Below are positions 1,735 through 61,529 of a DNA stretch of 64,000 bases, in pieces (position 1 is the stretch's first letter; each line of letters starts with the position of its first letter). This DNA comes from a virus (lineage: Duplodnaviria > Heunggongvirae > Uroviricota > Caudoviricetes): positions 32,001 through 96,000 of IMG/VR virus record IMGVR_UViG_2724679237_000005. One strand, given 5' to 3'. The position numbers and the translations under genes are program-made. Under the pieces are notes generated by a model. The model had not been told where the DNA came from, ran no database searches, and worked only from the letters and a program-made list of their open reading frames with translations.

Positions 1735-2838
1735 TCACACCGCCACTGGAACCTTGATCCACGGTAGAGGGTCATAGCCAAGAATTAAAACCTCGTCCCA
1801 TTTGAAATCATCCAACTCTGACCATTCATGAGGGAAAATAACGACCGGATCTGAATGCTCTGGAGCCTGTCGTTTCATTAGCTCACACACACCTTCCATG
1901 TGGTTGTTGTACAAATGCACGTCAAAGCCAAAATGCACAAATGCACCGGCCATGTGACCCGTAATCTTCGCGAGAAAATGAGTGAGAATGCCATAGCCAG
2001 CAATATTGAATGGCATACCAACAAAAGTGTCTACGCTACGCTGTACGAGGCAGGAGTTGAGGATGCGTTTGGGGATTCCAAGTTCATCCAGTTCGGCTTC
2101 AGTAACACTGCCGTCCATCTCCAGATCGTATAGCATCTTGGTGTAGATAGACTCGTAACCGAGGCGACTGTGTTGAAGACCAATGTCAGTTGCCATCGTT
2201 AAACGGGTTTCAAAATCCAGCTCACGACTCCACAAAGAGAAGACAAAGTGGCAAGGTGGCAGCTTCATATCCTCAAGCTCGCCTACGTTCCATGCGTTAA
2301 GCATGATGCGACGATCGGTAGGGTTCGTGCGCAGTGTATCGACAATACGCTGTAGCTGATCGATTTCACGGGACAGCACTACGCGATCTTCACAGATACC
2401 CAGGTATCCCTCGACTTTGTACCCGCGTTCACGGAAAGTAGCGATCTTGCTCAGATATTCACTATGGCTCACGATGCGGGTATCTTCCCATCGACGCCAC
2501 TGCTTACCGTAAACCGGCCCCAAATCGCCATTCTCATCGGCCCATGCATCCCAAATCTTAACGCCGTTATCCTTGAGAAATTGGATGTTGCCCGTGCCTT
2601 TCAGATACCACTCAAGTTCGACAAGTAGTGGCTTAAGATTTACCGCCTTTCCAGAAATAAGCGGCACAGTCCCACCAGTAAGCATGTAGTAAGAGGGAAC
2701 GTAGCAGGTGCTTAAAGTACCAGTGCCTGTGCGATCATCAGCCTGCACGCCGCTTTTAAGCACCGTCTCAATAACTTTTGCATACGATGCGTTTGTTACC
2801 TGACCGTTCGTATGCTCACGATTCAAAAGGAGTGACAC
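1735..2838 (-). CDS. thyA: thymidylate synthase
   Basis: DRTGTGT, GPVYGKQWR, DRRIMLNAWN and LPPCH motifs; GTG start with GAGGT RBS. Confidence 0.9.
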   Translation of the reverse strand: MSLLLNREHTNGQVTNASYAKVIETVLKSGVQADDRTGTGTLSTCYVPSYYMLTGGTVPLISGKAVNLKPLLVELEWYLKGTGNIQFLKDNGVKIWDAWADENGDLGPVYGKQWRRWEDTRIVSHSEYLSKIATFRERGYKVEGYLGICEDRVVLSREIDQLQRIVDTLRTNPTDRRIMLNAWNVGELEDMKLPPCHFVFSLWSRELDFETRLTMATDIGLQHSRLGYESIYTKMLYDLEMDGSVTEAELDELGIPKRILNSCLVQRSVDTFVGMPFNIAGYGILTHFLAKITGHMAGAFVHFGFDVHLYNNHMEGVCELMKRQAPEHSDPVVIFPHEWSELDDFKWDEVLILGYDPLPWIKVPVAV

Positions 2839-2853
2839 AATAACCTCACAAAG

Positions 2854-2869
2854 ATAAGTAATTACTTAT
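2854..2869. promoter_or_regulatory. perfect 16-bp palindrome ATAAGTAATTACTTAT upstream of thyA (member of ACTTACTTAT motif family)
   Basis: read directly; 16 nt upstream of thyA start. Confidence 0.5.
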
Positions 2870-2912
2870 TCATTGCGTGAGTTTACATTTATTGAGGGGA
2901 CAAGGCCAGATA

Positions 2913-2945
2913 GATAAAAAAATGGTGGCCATAGGCCACCAAAAA
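2913..2945 (-). terminator. rho-independent terminator after NTP-pyrophosphatase gene
   Basis: 8-bp stem tggtggcc/ggccacca followed by T-run on minus strand. Confidence 0.55.
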
Positions 2946-3009
2946 CGAATAGTTGTTTCAGGAATTTAACGCGCCAACACAATATACATAGATAGATAAC
3001 TACCTACAA

Positions 3010-3879
3010 TTATTTTTTGATCATTCCATACATTGCTGAGGATTTAGCTTGCTCAACAAAGGAGGATAAATCGACATCACTATAGGTTGGAGACTTCAGA
3101 ATCTTTCCATCGGAAATTCGAAAACCGATCATCTTATCGGTGCCATCAGCATGGCGGAATCCCAGATCTGAAGAGTCGTATTTGCAGTTGGCCACAGCCT
3201 GGCGACGTTCCTCGACATCAGCAGGCCATAATTTTGTCATGTTCGACCGATGAATTTCGCCAACCAGCTCGACTACATTGATACCGAGGAAATCAGCCAG
3301 TCGATAGGTCATCATGCACGCCACATAGATTTTGTTCATGACACGGCGCAGTTCCTGAATCAGTTCAGAATCCTTAACAGTCTTGTTCTCAAGTTTATCT
3401 GCCAGCTCTTCGAGCATACATGACGCCTCACGAGCTTCCTGAAATGGCATTGCCATATCATCGAAAACAGTGTTACCGGGCACAAAAATTGTCTGCATAA
3501 AGCGATCAATGCTCTGTTCCTGCGTGTAATAGGTCATGCCGGTAGAAATACCACCTTTGATGGCGACCATCGTACCAACACCAACGTATAAAAAGTCGGC
3601 CATTGCATCCAGCAGTTGCTCAATATCCCCATTCATTGCGGCTGGAATACCTTCCACTACAGCTTCTTCATGAATCAGGCTTGCACGGAGACGAAGCAGC
3701 TCTGGTGTCGGCATAACGCGTCTCGGATGCTGGAAGAGTTCATGAAACTGATCGACCATCTTGTAAATACTTTCAGTAGCTACACCATGACCTTCATGCA
3801 ACTCATATGGTTCTGGCTTAAATCCAATGAGACGATCGGTGGCAAGTTTCAGGTGGTCAGTCAGTTTGGTAAAGTTCAT
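3010..3879 (-). CDS. putative all-alpha NTP pyrophosphohydrolase (MazG or dimeric dUTPase-like)
   Basis: EExxE-type acidic helical motifs (LIHEEAVVEG, MLEELADKLE); start reassigned to internal ATG with AAGGAA RBS because upstream part overlaps nrdB. Confidence 0.4.
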   Translation of the reverse strand: MNFTKLTDHLKLATDRLIGFKPEPYELHEGHGVATESIYKMVDQFHELFQHPRRVMPTPELLRLRASLIHEEAVVEGIPAAMNGDIEQLLDAMADFLYVGVGTMVAIKGGISTGMTYYTQEQSIDRFMQTIFVPGNTVFDDMAMPFQEAREASCMLEELADKLENKTVKDSELIQELRRVMNKIYVACMMTYRLADFLGINVVELVGEIHRSNMTKLWPADVEERRQAVANCKYDSSDLGFRHADGTDKMIGFRISDGKILKSPTYSDVDLSSFVEQAKSSAMYGMIKK

Positions 3880-49905: not shown

Positions 49906-52900
49906 TTATTCTTTAGGTGAATTTAACTTCGTTTCAAGCTCCTCAACCCTTTTGGTCAATTGCTGAATATGATGAATGAGTGGTACAACCAAACGCTCAT
50001 ACATCACTCCTTCAGCGACCATACCATTTGAGGAAATATCTCCTGGAGAATCATTATTTGTTGGTTCACGCCAATGGACATATTGCGGGGCAATCTCACC
50101 AACCTCTTCAGCAATAAGGCCGTAATACCCCCAATCCTTTCGGTCACCTCGACAAATTGAACGATACCAAACAGGTCTTAATGACAAAAGTTCATCAGCA
50201 TATCGATCTTGTAATGTTTCAATATCCTTTTTATAGCGCCTTGAAGATGTTGAACGCCAAACTGTATTGATACCTGGGTTTGGATCAATGTACATATTGG
50301 CACCGCTAGTAGTTGTGCCAATATCCCATATAGCAAACCCTCCACTACCGCCTGATTTGACAACCAGTGTTTCAGCAATAATATCCAGGTTGCCACTATA
50401 GCCTGTCAGTGATGATCTGCTTGCATAGGAACTTAGAAGGTTTGTTACCTCTGTTTTCGTATAAGCATTAAGGTTAGCCGCAGTCAAAGTAATATCGGCA
50501 GAGCCATCAAACGCCACACCAGCAATTTTCCTTGCTGTCTGCAATTTTGTGGCTGTTGCGGCATTACCAGTAGTATTCTGATTACCGGTTGTATTCACAC
50601 CAGGGATTGAATCCTTAGCGGTATATACCTGCGCCCACGCTGACCATGCCGCATCAGTGGTATCTCTTCTGGAGCGAATGAAAACCGGCGCATGTGCACC
50701 GCTCGTACCACTCCAGCCAATAAGCAACTCGCCCTCACCAGCAGCACTCGCACCTTTCATGTGCAATACGTTGCCATACGTGGTCGGGTAGCTATTGTTG
50801 TACGCCTCGTACATTTGAATGCCAGCAGTACCTTGAGTAGAACCGCTTAAAGCCGTAACTCGACCACGAGAAACCAATGTATTAATATTGATATCACCTG
50901 AACCATCAAACTTAACACCATTGATGTTTCTCGCTGTTTGCAACTTCGTAGCTGTTGAAGCATTGCCATTCAAGCTACCATTTACGCCACCAGTAACATT
51001 TAGTCCATTACCAATAGACACAACACCGCTGCTATTATTAATTATAATCGGTCGCAAACTGTTCCATGAACCTAACGTATCTCCTGATGCTGTTAGCATG
51101 AAATATGTGCTGCCGCCGTCATTACGGATAAAGAACCCGTAGTTACCGTAAGCAATGCGGAAACCATTTGCATATTTTGAAACGATCTCACCAGAAGACG
51201 TTAACCCTCCAGATAATGTGCCACCTGAAAGCGGTAATGCTCCTACATCAGAAGCTGTTGGTTTGTTTCTAGTGTTATAAGAACGACGCCAGCCTGGTGC
51301 ATAATCACTTCCATTGTACACATAAATAAATTCCGCATTGTTAACACCACCATGACCCGATGTTGTTGTCGTTGTAACACGAATAGTGTAGTGGCTTGTT
51401 GCCTTATTACTAAACACCTCAATCACGGAACCAGATAGATCGATCCTACCGCAACCAGTGTCGTCTATATAATTATTGTTGGCGTAAGTCCATGAGCACC
51501 GTGCGATCCAATGTTTGTTTGTAAATGCCCCCTGATTATTTAGCCAAGTTATAAATTGAGCAGTCGTAAATGCCGTTCCGTTACCACTATTTAACCATCC
51601 AGCGGCAGCGGTTGGCGCGTTTATATCAGCCGGCTGAGGCATAAATCCAGTCGTGTAAACCTGCTCCCAACCACTTTCAAAACCATAGCCATCTCTTGAG
51701 GAACGGTAGAACAGACCACCATTTTTATAGTGAGCTTTAATTTGAAGCGTACGGCAACTACCTACACCGGTATAAAAGTTGGCAAGAATATAACTGTCGC
51801 CTGTTCTAGTTACATTGTAAGCACCAGATTCAGCATTCCACGGCACGCCACCATCAGCATCCGCATATGACCCTGTTGCCCTTCTTGCGAAAGCGGCAAC
51901 ATGCGCAGCGGTTAAAGTGATATCAGTAGAACCATCAAATGGAACACCGGATATTTTTCTTGCAGTCTGAAGTTTTGTAGCAGTTGCAGCATTACCAGTG
52001 GTGTTCTGATTACCCGTAGTGTTTACACCTGGAAGGTTGATATTTGCAGAACCGTCGAAACCAACTCCACCGATAGATCTTGCCGTCTGCAATTTCGTTG
52101 CTGTACTTGCATTACCATTTAATGTTCCGGTGATCCCACCAGTAACAGACAACGGACCTGAAACTGTTCCTCCGGTTGTTGGCAGTGCTCCAATATCTAA
52201 CGGCGTCGGTTTCTGATGTGTGCTATACATCGTATAAACAACACCATCGGTAACGCTGGAAGGCTTACTCGCTGAATATGTTGGCGATGTATAAATAGAA
52301 ACTGACGCATTTGCAGTACAATCCCAATGGATATTTACACTCGTCGCATAATTGCCAATTTCAACGTAAATATCATATGTATCGCCGGATGTGTTGATCC
52401 AGGCGAAATTCGTTAATCCGACAGCTGTACGCTTCCACAAAGCACCTGTAATCCCTTTGGGGTTTCCATTGCCTGCTCGTAGAACCAGTTCTGAAATGCC
52501 TGCCTGATGTGGGGAGCCGACGTTGTAACCAGCGCCACCAATCAATGCGATGTAAACGATGGAACTCGCTTGTGGCATTGTAACAGTAGCCAGTTTGAAC
52601 CACCCGGCCCCGCCAGAGAAAGACATCGTTATTGAATTTAAAGTACCAATATCTTTCGGCGTTAATGTGATATCCGCAGTCAGTGCTTTCCCGTTAATTT
52701 TTCGGTTAGATGGCACCCTGCTGTTCGCATTGTCATTGACTACTTTAACTGCTTTTGGCGTTGCGGCCAGCGATTCACTGGTGCTGTCGACAGCACTGCT
52801 AAGTTTCACAACACCTTTAGTTGTAAGGCTTGCGTCTTCCATCGCAACTGCACCGGCAATCTCTTCAGCACGATCAGCAGCAGCTTCCGCACGGGTCGCA

Positions 52901-54204
52901 GCGGATTCAGCAGCAGTTTTGCTCTGAGATGCTGCCGTCGCACTGCCTGCCGCCTCTGTTGCTTTCGTGGATGCCGTCGTGGCGCTGCCCTTCGCTGCTG
53001 ACGCCTGTCTGGTCGCCTCATCTTTTGAAGCAGACGCAGATGATGCCGATGACGCTGCCGAACTGGCGGACGATGCGGCTGCCGTTTTTGAGGATTCTGC
53101 ACGGGTTTCCGACGCTTTCGCGTTCGTTTCGGATGTCTTCGCTGCGGAAGCAGACCTCGCTGCTGCGCTGGCCTGTTCAGTGGCTTCGCCAGCCTTCGTT
53201 GTGGCTGTTGAAGCAGACGATGCGGCACTTTCTGCCGATTTTCCGGCGGCGGTGGCACTGGCTGAGGCCTGCCCGGCACTTGTTGACGCGGCACTGGCAG
53301 ACGACGCAGCCGCTGTTTTTGAGCCTGCCGCAGCCGAGGCGCTCTGTCCCGCTGCCGTTTCAGAAGACCTGGCGTTCGTCTCGGACGTTTTTGCCGCCTT
53401 CGCGGAATTTCCTGCCGCCGTTGCCGAGGAAGCGGCATTACTGGCGCTCGAGGCTGCGCTCGTTTCTGATGATTTCGCTGCCTCTTTTGAGGCCGCCGCA
53501 TCCCGGGCTGAGGTGGCAGCTTCTGACGCCTTCGTGGTCGCGGTGGATGCAGAAGTGGCTGCAGATTTTTGTGACGCTGCAGCATTCGTTTCAGACGTTT
53601 TCGCGGCACCGGCACTGGTGGCCGCCGCGCTTTTTGAGGACTCTGCAGCGGATGCACTTTGAGACGCTTGAGAGGCTTTTTCTCCAGCGGTATTGGCGCT
53701 TTCTGCTGCTGCGGCAGCACTGGCCGCCGCCTCACGAGCTTTGTCGCCAGCAGCATCAATCGCGTCAGTGTTATTTTTATACCACTCAACGTTTTCGTTG
53801 TGCTCGTTGACGATCTGCATTAGCGGCTTAACGGTCACTTCTGTACCGTCTTCACGCTCGATTGTCACCTCATCCAGAGCAGTCAACCAACTGCGCATGG
53901 ACTTGGAATCAGCCGACATACGCGACATTAGTGCTGTAAAGCGCGCGCTAAACTGTGTTAAGTCGCCTTCATAGGTCGTAATGATTCGGCACGGAACTTC
54001 AGACTGAGTTTCGCCGGTATAAGGTTCTGAGAGAACAATGTTCGTATCACTGGTTACGCGCTTGATCTCATACAGCTTATTGTCGGGGCCAATGACGATC
54101 ATCCCCGGCAACACACCATTAGCTGTTACGTTCCAGGCTGTCCCTGCCCCAACCAGAGTATTGCTGCCCTGTGTAAATGTGATAGTACCTTCCCTGTACC
54201 ACAT
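49906..54204 (-). CDS. side tail fiber with C-terminal intramolecular-chaperone-like domain
   Basis: repeated NGNASTATKLQTAR-I-GV-FDGS fiber repeats; long Ala/Ser/Thr-rich region; C-terminal region resembles self-cleaving chaperone domains. Confidence 0.75.
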   Translation of the reverse strand: MWYREGTITFTQGSNTLVGAGTAWNVTANGVLPGMIVIGPDNKLYEIKRVTSDTNIVLSEPYTGETQSEVPCRIITTYEGDLTQFSARFTALMSRMSADSKSMRSWLTALDEVTIEREDGTEVTVKPLMQIVNEHNENVEWYKNNTDAIDAAGDKAREAAASAAAAAESANTAGEKASQASQSASAAESSKSAAATSAGAAKTSETNAAASQKSAATSASTATTKASEAATSARDAAASKEAAKSSETSAASSASNAASSATAAGNSAKAAKTSETNARSSETAAGQSASAAAGSKTAAASSASAASTSAGQASASATAAGKSAESAASSASTATTKAGEATEQASAAARSASAAKTSETNAKASETRAESSKTAAASSASSAASSASSASASKDEATRQASAAKGSATTASTKATEAAGSATAASQSKTAAESAATRAEAAADRAEEIAGAVAMEDASLTTKGVVKLSSAVDSTSESLAATPKAVKVVNDNANSRVPSNRKINGKALTADITLTPKDIGTLNSITMSFSGGAGWFKLATVTMPQASSIVYIALIGGAGYNVGSPHQAGISELVLRAGNGNPKGITGALWKRTAVGLTNFAWINTSGDTYDIYVEIGNYATSVNIHWDCTANASVSIYTSPTYSASKPSSVTDGVVYTMYSTHQKPTPLDIGALPTTGGTVSGPLSVTGGITGTLNGNASTATKLQTARSIGGVGFDGSANINLPGVNTTGNQNTTGNAATATKLQTARKISGVPFDGSTDITLTAAHVAAFARRATGSYADADGGVPWNAESGAYNVTRTGDSYILANFYTGVGSCRTLQIKAHYKNGGLFYRSSRDGYGFESGWEQVYTTGFMPQPADINAPTAAAGWLNSGNGTAFTTAQFITWLNNQGAFTNKHWIARCSWTYANNNYIDDTGCGRIDLSGSVIEVFSNKATSHYTIRVTTTTTSGHGGVNNAEFIYVYNGSDYAPGWRRSYNTRNKPTASDVGALPLSGGTLSGGLTSSGEIVSKYANGFRIAYGNYGFFIRNDGGSTYFMLTASGDTLGSWNSLRPIIINNSSGVVSIGNGLNVTGGVNGSLNGNASTATKLQTARNINGVKFDGSGDININTLVSRGRVTALSGSTQGTAGIQMYEAYNNSYPTTYGNVLHMKGASAAGEGELLIGWSGTSGAHAPVFIRSRRDTTDAAWSAWAQVYTAKDSIPGVNTTGNQNTTGNAATATKLQTARKIAGVAFDGSADITLTAANLNAYTKTEVTNLLSSYASRSSLTGYSGNLDIIAETLVVKSGGSGGFAIWDIGTTTSGANMYIDPNPGINTVWRSTSSRRYKKDIETLQDRYADELLSLRPVWYRSICRGDRKDWGYYGLIAEEVGEIAPQYVHWREPTNNDSPGDISSNGMVAEGVMYERLVVPLIHHIQQLTKRVEELETKLNSPKE
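52760..53770. repeat. low-complexity Ala/Ser/Thr-rich coding repeats inside tail fiber gene
   Basis: GC-rich repetitive codons leave all frames open (source of spurious overlapping ORFs). Confidence 0.6.
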
Positions 54205-54296: not shown

Positions 54297-57200
54297 TTAC
54301 AGAAGGCCAATTCTTACTCGTAGGACGTTGTTATCGTCATAAACGTCAATCCGCTGACCATTTATGACCAGTCGCCCATTACCCCCGCTATTACCGTTGA
54401 TCTCAAGCGTTCCATTTTTGCCGAACCGCCATCCAGATCTACCGCTAACAAAATTGGTAGATTGCAGATCGCCTACTTTTGCATTGGTGATTGTGCCATC
54501 CTTGATATACGCACCATTCATATAGGCGATACTGTTTTCGATAACAAATGGCGTGGTGATCTTCCCGTTAACAGAGTTGACCAAACCAAACCTGTCAGCC
54601 TGCACCAAAAACTGAGAAAGGCCAGTGGTGTCGATACCAAGCGCAATACCAGCAACATACTTCTGCCCTCCGCTCGTTGAAGTTTCCATTTTCAACGTCC
54701 ACGCGGTTGACACTTTTTTGTTGGTATCAGCAATAGCTGTTGCCTGCTGTTGAATTGTCGCGGTATTTCCATCCACCTCTGCTTTCAGAGTATCGATTCG
54801 CCCACTCAGAGCATTATCTGCCTGCGTTCTCGCTGTCGTTTCAGTTGTTACCGCCGCGGAAATGTTGGCTGCCGTTTGAGACTCTAAGTTTGTGATTTGA
54901 GTCGCCAATGCAGCATCTTGCTCTGTACGCGTTTTCGTTTCGGTTGCTACAGCCGCTTTAATATCCTCTTTGTATTGAGAGGTCAGCTTGGTGATCTGAG
55001 ACGACAACGCCGAGTCAGCATCAGTTCGAGCCTGCGTTTCAACTGCAACGGCCGCACTAATATCTTTCGCTGTCTGTGCTTTTAAACTTGAAACCTCTTT
55101 TGTTAAAGCGGTATCACCATCAGCACGAGCCGTTGTTTCTCTGGCAAGAGATGCCTCGAGATCATTAGCTTTTGCTGTAAGAGACGAAATCTGAGTGGAC
55201 AATGCACTATCGGCATCAGTCCTTGCCTTTGTCTCTACAGCAACCGCTGCGGCAATATCAGTTCCGGTTTGTGCTCGCAGGCTGTTAATTTCTCGTGAGA
55301 GCGCCTGGTCAGCACTTGCTCTGGCCTCCTGCTCCTGAGTGATGGCAGCGGATATATCACCGTCAACCTTTGACTGAAGCTGGTTTATTTGTTTGGCTAA
55401 CGCAGAGTCCCCGCTTGCTCGGGCCTCCTGCTCACTACGTATTGCAGCAGAAATATCATCATCAACCTTTGCCTGAAGTTGGGTGATCTGGCTTGCCAGA
55501 GCCGAATCTTCCGTTGCTCGGGCTTCTTGCTCTTCCTTAATAGCTGCGACGATATCGTTGCTTACTTTCGACTCAAGCTGAGTGATCTGTGTCGTCAGAG
55601 CTTCATCGGCAGATGTGCGAGCCTCCTGCTCTGTACTAATCGCCGCGCTGATATCTCCTTCAAACTTAGATTGCAGCTGAGTGACACGCTTTGCCAACGC
55701 TTCATCGCCATCGGCACGAGCGGTGGACTCTTCCAGAATACTGGCCTTAATGTCTTCGCCAATTTCTACGCGAATTTCCTCAACCTTCGTGGCCATTGCA
55801 GACATATCATCAGCAAAGGTTTTCTGTGTTGTTGCGATCTTCGCGTTATTGACCATCTGCTTGTGCTGGTCTTCATCTTGACGAAGAGCCAGGTCAATAT
55901 TTGTTTTGGCTAACGCCTCAATGTTCGTAGTCAGTTCTGCACTGGCACGATCGACCTCTGCAACCGTCTTTTTCATTTCTTCAACGGCAGCGGAGCTTTC
56001 CTCTACCGTTGACTGCAACACTTCCAGTTGTTTAGCGTTTGCAGCATCGCCTTCAACACGAGCCTCGCTTTCCTTAGCAATAAGAGCCGCCGCTTCATCT
56101 CTTGCAGCCTTTATTGCCTCGACTGTATTAGCGAGAGCTTTATCGTGTTCAGATACGGTGTTTTCGATTTCAACAATTGCAGCATCAGTAGCATCAATTT
56201 TTTCAAACGCTTCATTGACCTTGTCGATCGTTGCCGAAACCTCACCTTTAAGCTCGGTTTGTGCGTTCTCCAAAGCATCGCTACGCTCGTTGAATTTTAT
56301 TTCAAAACCCGCGAGGTTATCGCTGAACTGCTTATCTAATTCAGCTATATCTTCCTTAACGTCGTTTACCGACCCCTCCAAAGATTCGACGCTCTGGTTG
56401 ATATGCTCATTTAACTCGTCAACTGCTTCTTGAGAGGCTTTGCTGTTGATGTCCTCAAGCAGAGCCTGACCAAGCTCGGAAGATGTAATTTTGCCAGCCA
56501 GGAACGACAGTACATCGCGAGTTGTCGCCTCTGTACCCAAGTTTGAGTTCGGAGGGCTTAACATACCTCGCTTGTTCGATGCTCGAACCCAGTAATACCA
56601 CGTTTCGCTATCCCCAAGACCAGCATGTGTAAAGGTGGTGCTTGCAGACTCTGCGATCAGTTTCGCCGTATCCAGATTGTTGGTCTGGGATGCGTAAACA
56701 TTAATGTGATCAAGGTCTACCGAATCTGGATTAACCCAATTCAGTATCACATTACGATAGTCTCCAACGGCCGTTAATGACGTTGGTGCATCCGGCGGTG
56801 TCATTGTGCCCAGCACCTGATAAACGGTACTGATAATTTCTGTTTTTTTACCGTTGAATGAAACCGCATACAGTTGGAAGTCGTAGCGTCCATTCTCCGC
56901 GACATTAACGATTTCGTATTGCTCTTCGGTTACACGCGCCGATTGCCAGTTCGATACATTGTTTTCATCAGAACGTCGCCAACTGATCCAATACTCTGGA
57001 GATTTTCCTTCCCATGTTGCAGTCAGTTTTACTGACAGGTTGCCCGGGCTTGAGAGATAAGTCCCTTCAGTGATTTGCAGATTAGATGGCTTGGAGTAAG
57101 TTGGGTCCAATACCGTCGTATTCTGCGGGATCAGCGTTGCGCCATTGTCGATTGCCTCATATTTAGACGGATTGTTCTCAACAGCGGTGATGTCAAAGCT

Positions 57201-59024
57201 ACCCGGCGTTTCCCCCTGCGCGATGTTAACGATGCGAACGCGCATAGGTTCGAGATCTGGTTCTGTAATTGTCCAGACACCGTTCAAAACAGGCGTTTCC
57301 GCTGACGACAGGGCTTTTGAAAACGTAACCTTTGTTATGTTTTCGCCAGTTTCAAGAACATCGCGTTCAACGATTTTGCCTTCCTGATTCAATATCCGAA
57401 TAAAGCTGCCGCTTTTAGCTAACGACACAGGCGCATCGAGAGTGATGCTGTTTTTGGTAAACTCCACAATTCGACCGGAGTTACGTTTACCTGCACGATA
57501 TTTGTTCTGAATCAGAACGGTTTCACCAGGCATCAGAAATGAGGCGTCTAAGCCGGCAGTAAATGTAATTACATCCGACTCCATTCTGGCGGTATACAAA
57601 AGCCACAAACCAACTCGGTGAGCCTGGCCTCGGCTTGTACATCCAAATGCTACGACTTCTGTTTTACGCTCACCATAACGGCGCATTGCGTCCTGATCTT
57701 CAACGTATTCGATGTTTTGCTTATAACCGTCCTCCTTGTTGTTGTAGGTTACGAGCGCAACGGATGGGCGATCTTTACGCGCAGAACCTTTATAGGTAAA
57801 CAGTCCATCTTTGACGTTGGAGTTGGTAAACATCATTACCGGATCTGATGGGCTATCCTGCATGATGTTAACCATGCCACCAGCCCAAAACACCATGCCG
57901 CGGAATGCACCGGCAATATCCTGAATTAATCGGTATGCGTCTTGTCGACTGGTGATCTGCGTATTGATTGCAAAGCGTTTCTCTTTACCCCCAAAGCCAT
58001 CATCGACCTCTTCGTCACAATATCGACCAATCTGGTAGAGCTGGCCGAGGTCAATCATGGATTCCGACACAAATTGCCCAAGACCATACCGAGTATTGGT
58101 AAGCAAATCGTAGAGAATCCACGCAGGGTTTGAAGAAGACAACAGCTTAAAAGTACCGTCCCATACGCCGACATAAGTATTGGTGTATTCGTTGTAGTTT
58201 GACGGTACTCGGATTTTGATACCGCGCACCAAATACGAACGGGAAGGCATTGTGCTACCAAACTGCTCTGAATTGACCTTCAAGCCAACAAGAGCAGAGT
58301 TAGGGTAGTTCATTGGCGTGTCGACAATCTCACCTATGGAATCAACCCATGTGTCGTTGTAGAGGTACTGGCTACTGTTATCATCTGTAAGACGAATCAC
58401 CCTAACCTTGTATGCACGACCAGGCTTAGGTAGTTTCAGCTCATAGCTACGGTAATACACGCCTGTTTTCTTTGCCGTTAGCGTGATATCAACGCTTTTT
58501 TCACCTTCAGCGACCACATCTACAAATGTTGAGTCGCCATTTGCTATCTGGAACTTGTACTCAACAGTCGTACCGTTCGTGTCACCAGTTTTTTTATCTA
58601 TGCTTCGCAAAGAAGGAAACTTCATGATGACACGAACCCGATCAGCTTCATCGTTATCGATTGAAACCGTTACATAATGTGTTTTTTTTAACTGGATATT
58701 GACGGATTTAGGCGTTTCAACGAAATCAAAGCCAGACATTGGAGTCTGGTCTTGTGAACCGTCGCGAAAATCCCATGTGATTCCGCTGAAGTTGGAGGAA
58801 CCGTCTTCATTTACAATCGGCAGATCGTCGATAAAAATAGATCTTGCGCCATTTACTAAGCCGCCAATTACCCCTTCCCCAAGAAGATCGAGGATAGCGG
58901 CCATTGCACGAGAATTTACGGTATCGTCGGCTTCAACCGGTGTACGGCTGGAGCTTTTGCTGCTTTTTTTACCACCCGCACCGGCAATAAACAGCGGTAG
59001 CTTTTTCTTCTTGAACTGTTCCAT
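54297..59024 (-). CDS. lambda J-like tail tip / host-specificity protein with internal coiled-coil repeat array
   Basis: N-terminal half collinear with J-type central tail fiber proteins; position after I/K/L/M homologs; start at ATG 59024. Confidence 0.8.
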   Translation of the reverse strand: MEQFKKKKLPLFIAGAGGKKSSKSSSRTPVEADDTVNSRAMAAILDLLGEGVIGGLVNGARSIFIDDLPIVNEDGSSNFSGITWDFRDGSQDQTPMSGFDFVETPKSVNIQLKKTHYVTVSIDNDEADRVRVIMKFPSLRSIDKKTGDTNGTTVEYKFQIANGDSTFVDVVAEGEKSVDITLTAKKTGVYYRSYELKLPKPGRAYKVRVIRLTDDNSSQYLYNDTWVDSIGEIVDTPMNYPNSALVGLKVNSEQFGSTMPSRSYLVRGIKIRVPSNYNEYTNTYVGVWDGTFKLLSSSNPAWILYDLLTNTRYGLGQFVSESMIDLGQLYQIGRYCDEEVDDGFGGKEKRFAINTQITSRQDAYRLIQDIAGAFRGMVFWAGGMVNIMQDSPSDPVMMFTNSNVKDGLFTYKGSARKDRPSVALVTYNNKEDGYKQNIEYVEDQDAMRRYGERKTEVVAFGCTSRGQAHRVGLWLLYTARMESDVITFTAGLDASFLMPGETVLIQNKYRAGKRNSGRIVEFTKNSITLDAPVSLAKSGSFIRILNQEGKIVERDVLETGENITKVTFSKALSSAETPVLNGVWTITEPDLEPMRVRIVNIAQGETPGSFDITAVENNPSKYEAIDNGATLIPQNTTVLDPTYSKPSNLQITEGTYLSSPGNLSVKLTATWEGKSPEYWISWRRSDENNVSNWQSARVTEEQYEIVNVAENGRYDFQLYAVSFNGKKTEIISTVYQVLGTMTPPDAPTSLTAVGDYRNVILNWVNPDSVDLDHINVYASQTNNLDTAKLIAESASTTFTHAGLGDSETWYYWVRASNKRGMLSPPNSNLGTEATTRDVLSFLAGKITSSELGQALLEDINSKASQEAVDELNEHINQSVESLEGSVNDVKEDIAELDKQFSDNLAGFEIKFNERSDALENAQTELKGEVSATIDKVNEAFEKIDATDAAIVEIENTVSEHDKALANTVEAIKAARDEAAALIAKESEARVEGDAANAKQLEVLQSTVEESSAAVEEMKKTVAEVDRASAELTTNIEALAKTNIDLALRQDEDQHKQMVNNAKIATTQKTFADDMSAMATKVEEIRVEIGEDIKASILEESTARADGDEALAKRVTQLQSKFEGDISAAISTEQEARTSADEALTTQITQLESKVSNDIVAAIKEEQEARATEDSALASQITQLQAKVDDDISAAIRSEQEARASGDSALAKQINQLQSKVDGDISAAITQEQEARASADQALSREINSLRAQTGTDIAAAVAVETKARTDADSALSTQISSLTAKANDLEASLARETTARADGDTALTKEVSSLKAQTAKDISAAVAVETQARTDADSALSSQITKLTSQYKEDIKAAVATETKTRTEQDAALATQITNLESQTAANISAAVTTETTARTQADNALSGRIDTLKAEVDGNTATIQQQATAIADTNKKVSTAWTLKMETSTSGGQKYVAGIALGIDTTGLSQFLVQADRFGLVNSVNGKITTPFVIENSIAYMNGAYIKDGTITNAKVGDLQSTNFVSGRSGWRFGKNGTLEINGNSGGNGRLVINGQRIDVYDDNNVLRVRIGLL
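54920..56030. repeat. about 11 tandem 99-bp (33-aa) coding repeats within J-like gene
   Basis: periodic DISAAI..EQEAR..AD.AL..QI.QL units; DNA periodicity visible. Confidence 0.6.
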
Positions 59025-59041: not shown

Positions 59042-59635
59042 TTACATTAGCTGGTCAATCGTGATTGAAGAACTCACAACCTGTGAGCCAACCAGAATTT
59101 CCTCGCCATAGATAAGTTGTACTGGGTTGCCCTGGTTTTCTGTATTTTGAGGGCCGTCGAAATAATAAGAGTTCGAGTTATCTGCCTGTCTCACACTTTC
59201 GTTAGTGGCTTGCGGCGATATGATTTGTGATATGCCGCCCATCATCAGTGACAAACCGAGAGGTGCTAAAGCAGGCATCACTACCGCCGATACAACCAAC
59301 AAAGCGGCCCCTACTACCGTCTGAAACCACCCAAAAGCAGATCCACCGCTTCCTCGCGGAACAGGTGTAATGCGGATTTTGGCAATGTTGTCAGACTGCC
59401 CCATCATCTGATATTCACTCTCGTCCACAGACCACTTGTGGCCCTGTTTATTGGTGATCTGGATGTGGTATCTGTCATAGGTTTTGATGTTGCGCTTCAT
59501 CCATGCTTTAAACCCTGGCTTGTTGGCCTCAATTAAATCCAGAGCCTGTTTTGTATTGCGCACCTTTAGATGCCAGTGGCGGCCAAAATGTTTGGCCATA
59601 GGGCCGCCAAGCTGCACATGAACTAACTCAGACAC
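59042..59635 (-). CDS. tail assembly protein I-like
   Basis: position between K-like and J-like genes; hydrophobic C-terminal half; GTG start. Confidence 0.55.
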   Translation of the reverse strand: MSELVHVQLGGPMAKHFGRHWHLKVRNTKQALDLIEANKPGFKAWMKRNIKTYDRYHIQITNKQGHKWSVDESEYQMMGQSDNIAKIRITPVPRGSGGSAFGWFQTVVGAALLVVSAVVMPALAPLGLSLMMGGISQIISPQATNESVRQADNSNSYYFDGPQNTENQGNPVQLIYGEEILVGSQVVSSSITIDQLM

Positions 59636-60420
59636 GTCTCATCTCCCTTGAGCAAGTCTCTGTGACGCAAGTGATGCGTCGTATGTTTCTGATACATCCC
59701 GCCGTAATAAGCACGACAACTAAGGCGGTCGATCTGGTGATGAAGAATCATTCCATCGCCGATATAAACCGCACAGTGGTCAGGCATTTTTCCGTATTGG
59801 ATAAAGAAGACGTCCCCACGTTGAGGTTCTGTTCCGGACGCAAGCCGTACCAATCCTTCGTTTCGGTAGTTCTGATCGAGAATGTCGTTATCGCCGGTGT
59901 ACCACGATGGAATATGCAGGTGTGCGTTCGGGTTTAGTTCGACGTTAAACTCACGCTTCAAATAGTCCCGACACAACATCCAGCAATCAAATACGCCAAA
60001 TACATACGGTCTGCCCAGGTATGGCATTTCGAAACCATCAGGTGTGATCACATTCATCTCGCTAAAATGGAAAGGGGCATCTCCCTCAACATTCTTGCGA
60101 ATAGCCAGAATCATCCACGGAACTTCCGTCGCTTCGCAGCCTGCACGATCGGCATAAGATGCTTCTGCTGATTCATCAGTATGTGAATGCCAGATTGCGA
60201 TAACATCACCCGCATCCTCTGCCGCCATAATGTCGTCAACGTGCATTACAAAAGTGTTCTGCGGGTTCTCCGAAACATTCCGCGCTTCCATAAAGCGATA
60301 TTTGTCGCCATTAGTTCTAACCAGAAAGCCACACGCTTCATTAGGGTAGCGATTTATGGCGCAGAGATAGATTTGCTGCATAACGTCAGAGCCAAGCTCA
60401 GGGATTGCTTTATTACCCAT
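59623..60420 (-). CDS. tail assembly protein K-like (MPN/JAB + NlpC/P60 domains)
   Basis: HSHTDESAEAS (JAMM-like) and Cys/His NlpC-like motifs; start overlaps L stop. Confidence 0.75.
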   Translation of the reverse strand: MGNKAIPELGSDVMQQIYLCAINRYPNEACGFLVRTNGDKYRFMEARNVSENPQNTFVMHVDDIMAAEDAGDVIAIWHSHTDESAEASYADRAGCEATEVPWMILAIRKNVEGDAPFHFSEMNVITPDGFEMPYLGRPYVFGVFDCWMLCRDYLKREFNVELNPNAHLHIPSWYTGDNDILDQNYRNEGLVRLASGTEPQRGDVFFIQYGKMPDHCAVYIGDGMILHHQIDRLSCRAYYGGMYQKHTTHHLRHRDLLKGDETCLS

Positions 60421-61111
60421 ACCGCGTAGCTCCAATAAATCCGCCAAAATGGATCACACCGTCGGCAAAATAATTCCGACGCGCATTACAGGCGTCATAA
60501 CGTTTTGTGCAGTAATCCGCACCAGACATAGACGTCTGCTGGTTATTTTTGTCGAAATATGGACCGGTATAGCCGCATTCTGGCCCTCGGTATTTCCACG
60601 GGCAGGTGTTTTTAATGATCTGACGATACGGCAGTTGCACCCCCATCAAATCGAACACACTGGACAATTCAAACTCGACAACCTGATGAGTTTCGAGAGT
60701 TTTCTGTTCGATAAACCACATTTCATCCGGAAAATGTTGGTTTGGATCTGCTGTTGGGTTGCCGTCTTTAAAATTAACGGCATCGAGGAAGCGAGCCAGC
60801 GTCATCTTGCGAATAATGCGGCAGCCAACAAGATCGTCGTTCGCCTGAACTTCCGCAGAGACGGTTCCGGCAAAGTTCGATACCTGAATTTTTGGACGTG
60901 GCAACGTTCCCTGGCCAGTTTTGTCAAAGCCTGATGCTTTGATTGGCCACGGCTCGTATGTCACTCCTTGCCAGACGACCGGTTGCATCAGTTCGTTTGT
61001 TCCGGCGTGGAAGAATAGCTTTCCCCCTGAAGTTGTGTTCGACATATCCAATACGAACAACTCAATGAGTGCAGAGGGAGATAAGCTCTGAATATCAGCT
61101 TTAATTCCCAT
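60413..61111 (-). CDS. minor tail protein L-like
   Basis: VVWQGVTYEPWPIKASGF, RFLDAVNF, NTCPWKYRGPECGYTGP match lambda L; AAGGA RBS. Confidence 0.85.
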   Translation of the reverse strand: MGIKADIQSLSPSALIELFVLDMSNTTSGGKLFFHAGTNELMQPVVWQGVTYEPWPIKASGFDKTGQGTLPRPKIQVSNFAGTVSAEVQANDDLVGCRIIRKMTLARFLDAVNFKDGNPTADPNQHFPDEMWFIEQKTLETHQVVEFELSSVFDLMGVQLPYRQIIKNTCPWKYRGPECGYTGPYFDKNNQQTSMSGADYCTKRYDACNARRNYFADGVIHFGGFIGATRYG

Positions 61112-61193
61112 TGTTTCATCCTTGAAATAAGTAGGCGCTAACATCCTGTCAGCGCCACAATGATAGTAAATTAGTACTTACTTATCCAGATGC

Positions 61194-61529
61194 TTAAGCC
61201 TCAAATACTTGTCTGAATGTGGCAGTTAAGACACAGTACCCCTGATATCGCTTGACCGTATGACTGTCACATACAACTACAATCTGCTTGCCTCTTGGAT
61301 TAACCCAATAGAACGATTCAACACCTGATCGCTCAGTCAGGAAGTCATCGATTGCATTAATTTCGTTGTATGATCTGGTAAAGGTTAACGACCATTCTTC
61401 TTTAATACGATTAAGACCTTGAGCCTGTCGCTGCTCGTAGTCATCACCAAAATTAAGTACCGTTACATTCGGTTTTACGCTCTTTTCAGATTCGTAATCT
61501 GGATACCAATTAAACGTTTGTCTTTCCAT
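61194..61529 (-). CDS. minor tail protein M-like
   Basis: about 110-aa protein immediately upstream of L-like gene, downstream of tape measure. Confidence 0.65.
   Translation of the reverse strand: MERQTFNWYPDYESEKSVKPNVTVLNFGDDYEQRQAQGLNRIKEEWSLTFTRSYNEINAIDDFLTERSGVESFYWVNPRGKQIVVVCDSHTVKRYQGYCVLTATFRQVFEA

What the first reader, a model, noticed from the sequence alone, without database searches (positions are those of the whole stretch)
54920..56030. J-like tail tip protein carries about eleven tandem 33-aa coiled-coil repeats
A lambda J-type N-terminal half is followed by a long array of near-identical 99-bp repeats (DISAAI..EQEAR..AD.AL..QI.QL) and then a distinct C-terminal domain. 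Tandem DNA repeats of this length are prone to copy-number change and could tune fibre length or receptor reach.
Basis: seen in the sequence. Interest (0 to 1): 0.45.

Follow-up and report, generated by a model that had tools for sequence, protein, structure and literature searches.

The report
Repeat-built shaft of phage central tail fibre
The repeats are real: ten old, diverged 33-amino-acid modules form the long helical shaft of the central tail fibre of a common E. coli phage-plasmid, an already known type of fibre that probably refolds on contact with the host cell, so this is a typical member of a known family with a useful natural variation in length.

Summary
The gene at window 54297..59024 (minus strand, 1575 aa) is the lambda-J-type central tail fibre of an SSU5-like phage-plasmid. 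It is 98.5% identical to J of Escherichia phage Cyrano (pLF82).

**Repeats.** After the J hub comes about 550 aa of predicted helix. Its distal 329 aa (window 54768..55754) are ten contiguous 33-aa units, with one degenerate unit upstream. A beta-prism tip domain (PF09327) follows.

The units are not near-identical DNA. They share 46-69% of bases, and the longest shared exact word is 12 nt. Codons at invariant residues are scrambled, so the duplications are old and held by selection on the protein.

Copy number does change. I found four independent clean 99-bp in-frame indels among near-identical plasmids, giving 9, 10 or 11 units. Related elements carry 1, 4, 5 or 6 units, and the wider family 0-24.

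**Likely mechanism.** The shaft is homologous to that of F-type pyocin central fibres. [quoted passage not shown] Every unit here carries that paper's sequence motif, the array has both alpha and beta periodicity, and AlphaFold2 predicts the last unit as helix in one run and as a hairpin in another. The fold switch remains an inference.

**Verdict.** New member of a known kind, of modest interest.

The parts
54297..59024 (-). Central tail fibre / tip attachment protein J gene (1575 aa, ATG start; stop codon at 54297-54299)
   Evidence: ORF and translation. The same start is annotated in phage Cyrano CYRAN_20, which is 98.5% identical. PDB sequence hits are the F2-pyocin fibre 25vf (E 1.5e-155), T1 gp33 9l9p (E 4.5e-132) and lambda J 8iyk (E 7.9e-126).
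56451..59024 (-). N-terminal J-type hub and fibronectin-III part (aa 1-858)
   Evidence: Pfam FNIII-A_GpJ, Phage-tail_3 and fn3. It aligns to lambda J residues 3-837. It is 80-100% identical to SSU5 J.
55755..56450 (-). Proximal, non-periodic helical shaft (aa 859-1090); its conserved segment at about aa 950-1090 is a candidate side-fibre docking or 'spine' region
   Evidence: AF2 predicts helix. Hydrophobic period is 3.56 (z 8.7) with no beta-type periodicity (z 0.7). Over aa 951-1100 it is 66-90% identical to SSU5, while aa 851-950 are only 35% identical. The docking role is inferred from F-pyocin structures.
56001..56087 (-). Isolated degenerate 33-aa unit (aa 980-1008)
   Evidence: Unit profile hit, E 1.1e-5.
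55857..55895 (-). Predicted break in the helix (aa 1044-1056, ...LALRQDEDQHKQ...), acidic; a possible kink
   Evidence: AF2 gives a non-helical, low-pLDDT segment at residues 186-198 of the fragment. By analogy, F2 pyocin has an acidic kink where the side fibres dock. This is inference.
54768..55754 (-). Array of ten contiguous 33-aa units (aa 1091-1419), consensus DISAAIxxExxARxxADxALxxQIxxLxAKVxG
   Evidence: Unit coordinates and identities. Profile hits E 1e-15 to 4e-20. Invariant residues are A4, E9, R13, D17, A19, L20 and L27. Periodicity is both alpha (3.65) and beta (2.07).
55260..55556 (-). Units 3-5: the most DNA-similar units and the hot spot for gain or loss of one unit
   Evidence: DNA identity 63-69%. 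The Tandem Repeats Finder hit is at 55315-55532. Breakpoints of the +99/-99/-99 bp variants map to window 55409-55471 and are flanked by 10-20 nt of microhomology.
54300..54767 (-). C-terminal beta-prism tip domain (aa 1420-1575; J 'central straight fibre' domain, formerly DUF1983)
   Evidence: PF09327, E 1.4e-41. AF2 predicts beta strands with pLDDT 85-92. Foldseek hits are lambda J central fibre 8xcj/8xci and SU10 7z4b. It is 88-96% identical to SSU5.
49906..54204 (-). Side tail fibre gene (1432 aa) immediately downstream
   Evidence: Pfam Gp34_trimer and Peptidase_S74. The Cyrano orthologue is annotated as a tail fibre.
53884..54201 (-). N-terminal anchor domain of the side fibre (aa 2-107)
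   Evidence: It matches residues 3-104 of the F2-pyocin side fibre 25ve_A at E 6.6e-4. In F2 pyocin that part docks on the helical shaft of the central fibre. The first 200 aa, which include this domain, are 80% identical to SSU5.
59042..61529 (-). Upstream tail-tip genes in lambda order: M (61194..61529), L (60413..61144), K (59623..60447), I-like (59042..59635)
   Evidence: Pfam Phage_min_tail, Phage_tail_L and NlpC/P60 + JAB. Cyrano annotation.

Best explanation
The array is the distal two thirds of the helical shaft of the central tail fibre of an SSU5-like phage-plasmid. By homology the shaft is a trimeric coiled coil.

**Architecture.**
- The hub part of the protein closes the tail tip.
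- About 550 residues then extend as helix. At 0.15 nm per residue this is roughly 80 nm in total, and about 4.9 nm per 33-aa unit.
- The shaft ends in a small beta-prism tip domain.
- The proximal, conserved part of the shaft probably carries the side fibres. Their N-terminal anchor resembles that of the F2-pyocin side fibre.

**History of the units.**
- The ten units are ancient duplicates kept alike at the protein level only.
- Occasional unequal recombination or slippage at 10-20 nt microhomologies between the most similar units (3-5) adds or removes exactly one unit in frame.
- Lineages therefore differ in shaft length: 1, 4-6 or 9-11 units.

**Inferred mechanism (my estimate about 45%).** As in the homologous shaft of F-type pyocins, the coiled coil is metastable. 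After receptor contact it would refold from the C-terminal beta-prism 'seed' upwards into a beta-prism. Each unit would supply a hairpin of two antiparallel strands, at unit positions 4-15 and 18-31. This would shorten the fibre, pull the tip towards the membrane, open the tail tip and release the tape-measure protein.

**Shown versus inferred.** Shown here are the architecture, the homology, the motifs, the periodicities and the copy-number events. Trimer state, side-fibre docking and the fold switch are inferred.
For: **Identity and context.**
- establish the gene, its domains and its neighbours.
- Helix is predicted for aa 861-1409 and beta strands after that.

**Homology of the shaft and tip.**
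- F2-pyocin fibre residues 884-1193 match at E 7e-25.
- T1 gp33 matches at E 4e-29 and has the same 33-aa units.
- Podophage DEV fibre 9ze4 matches at E 4e-17.

**Published mechanism for the homologue.**
[quoted passage not shown] This opens the tip and ejects the tape-measure protein.
- Ala-to-Gln changes at 'S' positions abolish killing.
- 24 of 120 Gram-negative siphophage central fibres are related (PMC12874032).

**Motif evidence in the window.**
- The paper's motif SxSxxMxxLxS occurs in reversed orientation at unit positions 4-14 in 10/10 units.
- It occurs in forward orientation at positions 19-29 in 10/10 units.
- In total there are 26 motifs against 4.8 expected, with a maximum of 12 in 1000 shuffles.
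- F2 residues E1039/R1043 align with the invariant E9/R13 of the last unit. These are the residue numbers of the F7 salt bridge at an 'M' position.

**Periodicity.** The array has both beta-type (2.07, z 8.8) and alpha-type (3.65, z 6.0) hydrophobic periodicity. The upstream coil has only the alpha type.

**Structure prediction.** AF2 gives unit 10 as helix with one alignment. With a deeper alignment it gives two strands, at aa 1390-1401 and 1404-1417, adjoining the tip domain's strands in sequence.

**Side fibre.** Its N-terminal anchor is homologous to that of the F2-pyocin side fibre, which docks on the shaft in F pyocins.

**Age of the units.** Arg13 uses five different codons, and the units are collinear between relatives.

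**Copy-number events.**
Against: - No trimer prediction and no structure could be made here. AF2 was run on a monomer.
- The beta prediction covers only the last unit, at pLDDT about 50. Units 6-9 are confidently helical (pLDDT above 90).
- A widespread E. coli variant with the same hub, proximal shaft and tip has only ONE unit. A long array is therefore not needed for a working-looking fibre, which favours a dispensable length module.
- The motif count is inflated by non-independence, because the ten units descend from one.
- The pseudo-palindromic symmetry of the unit about R13 would help direct repeats form antiparallel strands. It is not significant: 177 of 2000 column shuffles do as well.
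- He et al. describe 5-6 strands for the switching region, which I could not reconcile exactly with two strands per unit.
- The similarity of the side-fibre anchor is weak (E 6.6e-4).
- He et al. is a preprint, and lambda and T5 do not use this switch.
Confidence: 0.6

Rival explanations
1. Passive spacer only. The array is a stable coiled-coil rod whose sole role is to set how far the tip domain reaches ahead of the tail, for example through O-antigen or capsule. Copy number tunes that reach, and there is no refolding.
For: - Length varies in exact 33-aa steps between lineages and among close relatives.
- Variants with 1 to 11 units share the same hub and tip.
- Units 6-9 are predicted as confident helix.
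- According to a paper that cites the original SSU5 work, SSU5 infects only rough strains through the LPS core, bound by its tail fibre gp22. Reach through surface polysaccharide could therefore matter.
Against: - The homologous shaft of F pyocins does refold.
- A plain spacer does not explain strict conservation of small residues at A4, A12 and A19, the E9-R13-D17 triad, the strong beta-type periodicity absent from the upstream coil, or the helix/strand ambiguity of unit 10.
Confidence: 0.3
2. Multi-site docking scaffold. The repeated units offer several equivalent attachment sites for side-fibre trimers or other adhesins. The glycine-containing units 1, 4 and 7 would act as kinks.
For: - In F pyocins the side fibres dock on a glycine kink of the shaft.
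- The side-fibre N-terminus here resembles that anchor.
- G16 occurs only in units 1, 4 and 7.
- AF2 breaks the helix at units 4 and 7.
Against: - The array is the least conserved part between SSU5 and this element, yet the side-fibre anchor is conserved. The co-conserved segment is the non-repeat shaft at aa 951-1100.
- Variants with one unit keep the same side-fibre gene arrangement.
- Three glycines among ten units may be chance.
Confidence: 0.08
3. Assembly artefact, or a hypermutable contingency locus made of near-identical DNA repeats.
For: Tandem Repeats Finder detects a 99-bp period. Some copy-number variants exist.
Against: - The same length is found in most of the complete plasmid records examined.
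- Units share only 46-69% of bases, with no exact word longer than 12 nt.
- Only 3 of 56 sampled close relatives differ in copy number.
Confidence: 0.02

Closest known systems
Central fibre protein of F-type pyocins (PA0641 / PyoF10; F2 structure 25vf; F7 of He et al. 2026)
   Same: - It has a J-type hub, a trimeric helical shaft and a beta-prism tip without a lambda-type receptor-binding domain.
- Sequence homology holds over the whole length (E 1.5e-155) and over shaft plus tip (E 7e-25).
- It shares the E-x3-R-x3-D core of the unit.
- Its side fibres have a related N-terminal anchor.
   Different: - The pyocin shaft is 163-178 residues, about five loosely periodic units. Here there are about 550 helical residues, including ten regular units.
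- The pyocin is a headless bacteriocin, whereas this is a phage-plasmid.
- The fold switch is shown only for the pyocin.
Phage T1 central fibre gp33 (PDB 9L9P)
   Same: - It has a J-type hub followed by 33-aa units of the same family (DIxASLxxIRExIAxETEALSREIDQLKAQIGD).
- It has the same tip domain (E 4e-29 for the C-terminal part).
- Its C-terminal 352 residues are flexible and unresolved, and AF3 predicts them to be about 37 nm long.
   Different: At least three units are visible in the T1 alignment, two of them nearly identical. Here there are ten diverged units.
Orthologues in SSU5-like phage-plasmids (Salmonella phage SSU5 gp20; Escherichia phage Cyrano CYRAN_20 on pLF82; PhiR41_1)
   Same: They have the same gene in the same operon. 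Identity is 98.5% to Cyrano and 74% to SSU5. The gene is already annotated as host specificity protein J.
   Different: Unit number differs: SSU5 has 5+1, PhiR41_1 has 9+1, and Cyrano and the window have 10+1. None of the papers I read mentions the repeats.
Phage lambda J (PDB 8IYK, 8XCJ)
   Same: The N-terminal 860 residues match (E 8e-126). The central-straight-fibre domain PF09327 is shared.
   Different: Lambda has no helical shaft and carries a C-terminal LamB-binding domain. Here the protein ends 18 residues after PF09327.
Short fibre gp56 of Pseudomonas podophage DEV (PDB 9ZE4)
   Same: It has the same unit type plus the same C-terminal end (E 4e-17, two stretches).
   Different: It is a 429-aa fibre without the J hub, in a podovirus. 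It binds partner proteins gp55 and gp54, which recognise LptD.

Membership tests
Lambda J / TipJ central tail fibre (tail-tip hub) proteins | N-terminal hub and FNIII domains (PF24801, PF13550, fn3) with homology to solved J proteins | tested here: met
   Pfam E-values are 4e-30, 7.5e-34 and 2e-5. Lambda J 8iyk matches at E 7.9e-126 over aa 19-861.
Lambda J / TipJ central tail fibre (tail-tip hub) proteins | Gene order M-L-K-I-J downstream of the tape-measure gene | tested here: met
   Phage_min_tail, Phage_tail_L and NlpC/P60+JAB lie upstream on the same strand. The Cyrano annotation agrees.
PF09327 (central straight fibre / DUF1983) tip domain | Full-length match above the Pfam gathering score, with a beta-rich fold like the lambda J central fibre | tested here: met
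   141.9 bits against a cut-off of 22, covering profile positions 1-138 of 139. AF2 predicts beta strands at pLDDT 85-92. Foldseek hits 8xcj/8xci at probability 1.00.
Fold-switching coiled-coil central fibres (He et al. 2026, F7 pyocin class) | C-terminal ~400 residues homologous to the F-pyocin central fibre | tested here: met
   The F2-pyocin fibre 25vf_A, residues 884-1193, aligns to aa 1243-1548 at E 7.4e-25.
Fold-switching coiled-coil central fibres (He et al. 2026, F7 pyocin class) | Long region of high coiled-coil propensity directly before a non-switching beta-prism 'seed' | tested here: met
   AF2 predicts helix at aa 861-1409 followed by beta strands. Alpha-type periodicity has z 6.0-8.7. 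Trimer state was not testable with a monomer predictor.
Fold-switching coiled-coil central fibres (He et al. 2026, F7 pyocin class) | Motif SxSxxMxxLxS in alternating orientation, with Asp/Glu at M paired to Arg at +/-4 | tested here: met
   The reversed motif is at unit positions 4-14 and the forward motif at 19-29, each in 10/10 units. E9-R13-D17 is invariant. There are 26 motifs against 4.8 expected. The units are not independent of one another.
Fold-switching coiled-coil central fibres (He et al. 2026, F7 pyocin class) | Alternative predictions (coiled coil and beta-prism) for the same residues | tested here: inconclusive
   Only unit 10 changes, from helix to two strands (pLDDT about 50). 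These were monomer predictions, so no prism can form.
Fold-switching coiled-coil central fibres (He et al. 2026, F7 pyocin class) | Experimentally observed refolding on receptor contact | not testable with these tools
   This needs cryo-EM or cryo-ET of virions, or mutagenesis.
Slippage-prone tandem DNA repeat (contingency-type locus) | Near-identical DNA units | tested here: not met
   DNA identity is 46-69%, and the longest shared word is 12 nt.
Slippage-prone tandem DNA repeat (contingency-type locus) | Frequent copy-number differences among very close relatives | tested here: inconclusive
   3 of 56 evenly sampled E. coli plasmids differ by one unit. The variation is real but uncommon.

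The most novel reading that the evidence does not exclude
The 33-aa unit may be the quantum of a coiled-coil-to-beta-prism machine. Each unit would refold into one beta-hairpin layer, so the number of units would set the reach of the fibre (about 4.9 nm per unit), the length of the contraction stroke and the energy released. If so, natural plasmids with 1, 9, 10 or 11 units, identical hub and tip and otherwise near-identical sequence, would be a ready-made allelic series for testing how a non-contractile tail stores and spends folding energy.
Probability: 0.3. Interest if true: 0.6.

Novelty: new member of a known kind. Interest (0 to 1): 0.35.

Why it matters
How long non-contractile tails get through the outer membrane without a contractile sheath is an open question. 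The recent F-pyocin work proposes refolding of the central-fibre coiled coil as the power source.

This element belongs to that class. It is common: 176 of 5426 complete E. coli genomes carry it, always on a plasmid. It also comes in natural length variants that differ by exactly one module. That makes the reach-versus-stroke question experimentally approachable in an inducible, culturable phage-plasmid such as Cyrano or SSU5.

For annotation, the lesson is that the array is an ordinary, ancient protein repeat. It is not a hypervariable DNA repeat and not an assembly error.

Tried and rejected
- **Tandem Repeats Finder on the DNA.** It finds only 2.2 copies. The repeat is visible mainly at the protein level.
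- **Pseudo-palindrome of the unit about R13.** This symmetry would let direct repeats build antiparallel strands. R13 is the best reflection centre, but 177 of 2000 column shuffles do as well, so I dropped it as evidence.
- **AF2 on the whole 717-aa C-terminal part with 45 sequences.** It gave an all-helix shaft and did not test the switch. A deeper alignment on the last 320 aa changed only unit 10, at low confidence.
- **Foldseek against the PDB with both models.** It returns only the tip-domain relatives (lambda J open state, SU10) and nothing for the shaft.
- **Residue-by-residue mapping of the He et al. mutant positions (A987, A995, A998, A1011) onto the units.** This failed because the upstream pyocin units are shorter and the register is uncertain. 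Only E1039/R1043 could be mapped from a computed alignment.
- **Supplementary list of the 24 phages in He et al.** It is not held, so I could not see whether SSU5-like phages were included.
- **The Cyrano paper.** It says nothing about the tail tip.
- **Antisense ORFs over the array (55479..55913 and 55906..56433, plus strand).** I treated them as chance ORFs opposite a long gene and did not pursue them.
Full report
**What is there.** The finding lies inside one long minus-strand gene, window 54297..59024 (1575 aa from the ATG).
- Pfam finds the lambda-J N-terminal domains FNIII-A_GpJ, Phage-tail_3 and fn3. At the very C-terminus it finds PF09327, the J 'central straight fibre' domain, formerly DUF1983.
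- The genes upstream are the lambda-type tail-tip set M, L, K and I.
- The gene downstream (49906..54204) is a 1432-aa side tail fibre.
- The protein is 98.5% identical to 'tail host specificity protein J' of Escherichia phage Cyrano, the pLF82 phage-plasmid. It is 74% identical to SSU5 gp20.
- The C-terminal 2.15 kb is found in 176 of 5426 complete E. coli genomes, always on plasmids of about 95-220 kb, mostly near 110 kb. The window is therefore a piece of an SSU5-like phage-plasmid.

**Checking the observation.**
- Printing the translation in 33-residue lines shows ten contiguous units at aa 1091-1419 (window 55754..54768). One unit has 32 residues.
- A profile built from the units recovers each at E 1e-15 to 4e-20. 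It also finds one degenerate, isolated unit at aa 980-1008.
- Seven columns are invariant: A4, E9, R13, D17, A19, L20 and L27.
Its coordinates are shifted and miss the last one and a half units.
- 'Near-identical 99-bp repeats' is wrong. Units share 46-69% of bases (mean 55%) and no exact word longer than 12 nt. Tandem Repeats Finder reports only 2.2 copies, over units 3-5.
- Codons at invariant residues are scrambled. Arg13 uses CGT, CGC, CGA, AGA and AGG, and Leu20 uses TTG, CTG, TTA and CTC.
- Units are collinear between this gene and PhiR41_1.
- These are therefore old duplications kept alike by selection on the protein.

**Copy number.**
- By the unit profile, Cyrano and CP054387 have 10+1 units, PhiR41_1 has 9+1 and SSU5 has 5+1.
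- PhiR41_1 and CP054387 differ by 16 substitutions in 4.6 kb plus one clean 99-bp indel, flanked by about 20 nt of near-identity.
- Relative to the window, plasmid NZ_CP182176 has +99 bp (11 contiguous units, 1608 aa). NZ_JBXSFF010000003 and NZ_CP081702 each have -99 bp.
- Those three changes have three different breakpoints, all between window 55409 and 55471, inside the three most similar units.
- In an evenly spaced sample of the E. coli hits, 3 of 56 full-length matches were such variants. Another 3 carried an IS element in the gene.
- Further relatives have contiguous runs of 3-6 units (Salmonella, Cronobacter, Yersinia, Photorhabdus).
- A common E. coli form of 1229 aa has exactly one unit. 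That unit looks like the front of unit 1 joined to the back of unit 10, between the same proximal shaft and the same tip.
- Across 140 representatives of the wider family (3032 clusters at E up to 1e-3), unit counts run from 0 to 24 with a modal spacing of 32-33 residues.
- The array is thus a modular, length-variable element. It is neither an artefact nor hypervariable.

**What the region is structurally.**
- AlphaFold2 (monomer, 45-sequence alignment) predicts helix for aa 861-1409, with three short breaks, and beta structure afterwards.
- At 0.15 nm per residue, a standard value, this is a shaft of about 80 nm, of which each unit contributes about 4.9 nm.
- The tip domain matches the lambda J central fibre and the SU10 tail fibre in fold.
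- Sequence searches of the PDB with the C-terminal 717 residues hit:
  - phage T1 gp33 (9L9P, E 4e-29), which shows the same 33-aa units;
  - the F2-pyocin central fibre (25vf, E 7e-25);
  - the DEV podophage fibre (9ZE4, E 4e-17);
  - lambda J (identities of the entries).

**How it probably works.** Three 2026 papers on F-type pyocins bear directly on this.
- The homologous shaft is a trimeric coiled coil on which the side fibres dock, at an acidic glycine kink (bioRxiv 10.64898/2026.02.24.707460; PMC13455828).
- In the F7 pyocin, residues 921-1083 of the shaft refold into a triangular beta-prism on cell contact. This opens the tip and ejects the tape-measure protein.
- Gln substitutions at small 'S' residues block killing. 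A motif SxSxxMxxLxS marks each strand. 24 of 120 Gram-negative siphophage central fibres are related (PMC12874032).

I tested the sequence-level criteria here.
- Every unit has the reversed motif at positions 4-14 and the forward motif at 19-29. In total there are 26 motifs against 4.8 expected.
- The invariant E9-R13-D17 triad fits the 'acidic M position with Arg at +/-4' rule.
- In the computed alignment, F2 residues E1039/R1043 fall on E9/R13 of the last unit. He et al. give those residue numbers for the F7 salt bridge.
- The array has strong beta-type (period 2.07, z 8.8) as well as alpha-type (3.65 = 33/9, z 6.0) hydrophobic periodicity. The non-repeat coil upstream has only the alpha type (3.56, z 8.7; beta z 0.7).
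- With a deeper 70-sequence alignment, AlphaFold2 keeps units 6-9 helical at pLDDT above 90. It turns unit 10 into two strands, aa 1390-1401 and 1404-1417, which are the two motif positions, and these lead straight into the tip domain's strands in sequence. Confidence there is only about 50.
- The N-terminal 106 residues of the downstream side fibre match the anchor part of the F2-pyocin side fibre (E 6.6e-4).
- Between this element and SSU5, the non-repeat shaft segment aa 951-1100 and the side-fibre N-terminus are both conserved, while the array is not. This points to docking on the proximal shaft.

**Caveats.**
- The fold switch is inferred by homology and motif, not shown.
- All predictions were monomeric.
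- The motif statistics count ten related units.
- The one-unit variant shows that a long array is dispensable for the architecture.
- The unit's mirror symmetry about R13 is not significant.
- I could not reconcile 'two strands per unit' with the '5-6 strands' of He et al.
- A purely passive spacer role remains a serious rival. It is consistent with SSU5 being reported to infect only rough strains through the LPS core, bound by its tail fibre gp22 (as cited in PMC12312913).

**Novelty.**
- The gene is annotated in public records, and its family and architecture are known.
- None of the papers I read mentions the repeat structure or its copy-number polymorphism. The word 'repeat' does not occur in He et al..
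- I class it as a new member of a known kind. Its modest added value is a natural series of 1, 9, 10 and 11 units on otherwise near-identical plasmids.

Noticed in passing
L009 (NZ_CP020118) 1196-1893; L010 (NZ_CP029421) 1832-3001; L011 (NZ_CP085184) 2460-3673; these correspond to about aa 1087, 1301 and 1498 of the window gene: Three of 56 sampled E. coli plasmids have the J gene split by an insertion sequence (IS1, ISEc52, IS1203) at three different sites. Some of these phage-plasmids are therefore probably no longer infectious phages.
   Followed up: partly
proteins P0070-P0119, matching window about 55750-56200: Many database copies of this protein are 'partial' and stop at aa 943-1090, just before the array. 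Some sit on contigs of about 100 kb. Draft assemblies evidently often break here. IS insertions or co-resident variants with a shared hub are possible causes. The array itself has no long exact repeats.
   Followed up: no
window 49906..54204 (-), especially about 52800-53800; Tandem Repeats Finder hit at 52863-52912: The side-fibre protein has a long Ala/Ser/Thr-rich low-complexity stretch (aa about 150-480). It also has three or more copies of an '...GNA(S/A)TATKLQTAR...G..FDGS.(D/N)I' motif, a Gp34_trimer domain and a C-terminal Peptidase_S74 chaperone domain. Its length differs between relatives: 1432 aa here, 1341 in Cyrano, 1260 in SSU5 and 597 in PhiR41_1.
   Followed up: partly
window 54768..55754, units 1, 4 and 7: Glycine at unit position 16 occurs only in units 1, 4 and 7, that is every third unit. 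AlphaFold2 breaks the helix exactly there in units 4 and 7. This could be chance, or regularly spaced kinks.
   Followed up: no
L005 (Klebsiella phage vB_Kpn_1825-KPC53) from 4007: Klebsiella SSU5-like elements share the first ~900 aa of J (82% identity). They then continue into a much longer, different C-terminal part: the ORF exceeds 2232 aa and ran to the end of the fetched locus. It has only weak traces of the unit.
   Followed up: no
P0122 (2138 aa), aa about 1160-1850: A distant family member carries about 20 units, many nearly identical to each other (GKDIAAAVLTETTARATEDEALA.RIDAL.AQ.G). Recently expanded arrays therefore also exist in this family.
   Followed up: no
window 59623..60447 (-): The K-like tail-tip protein combines a JAB/MPN domain and an NlpC/P60 peptidase domain, as in lambda K. 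This is ordinary and is recorded for completeness.
   Followed up: no
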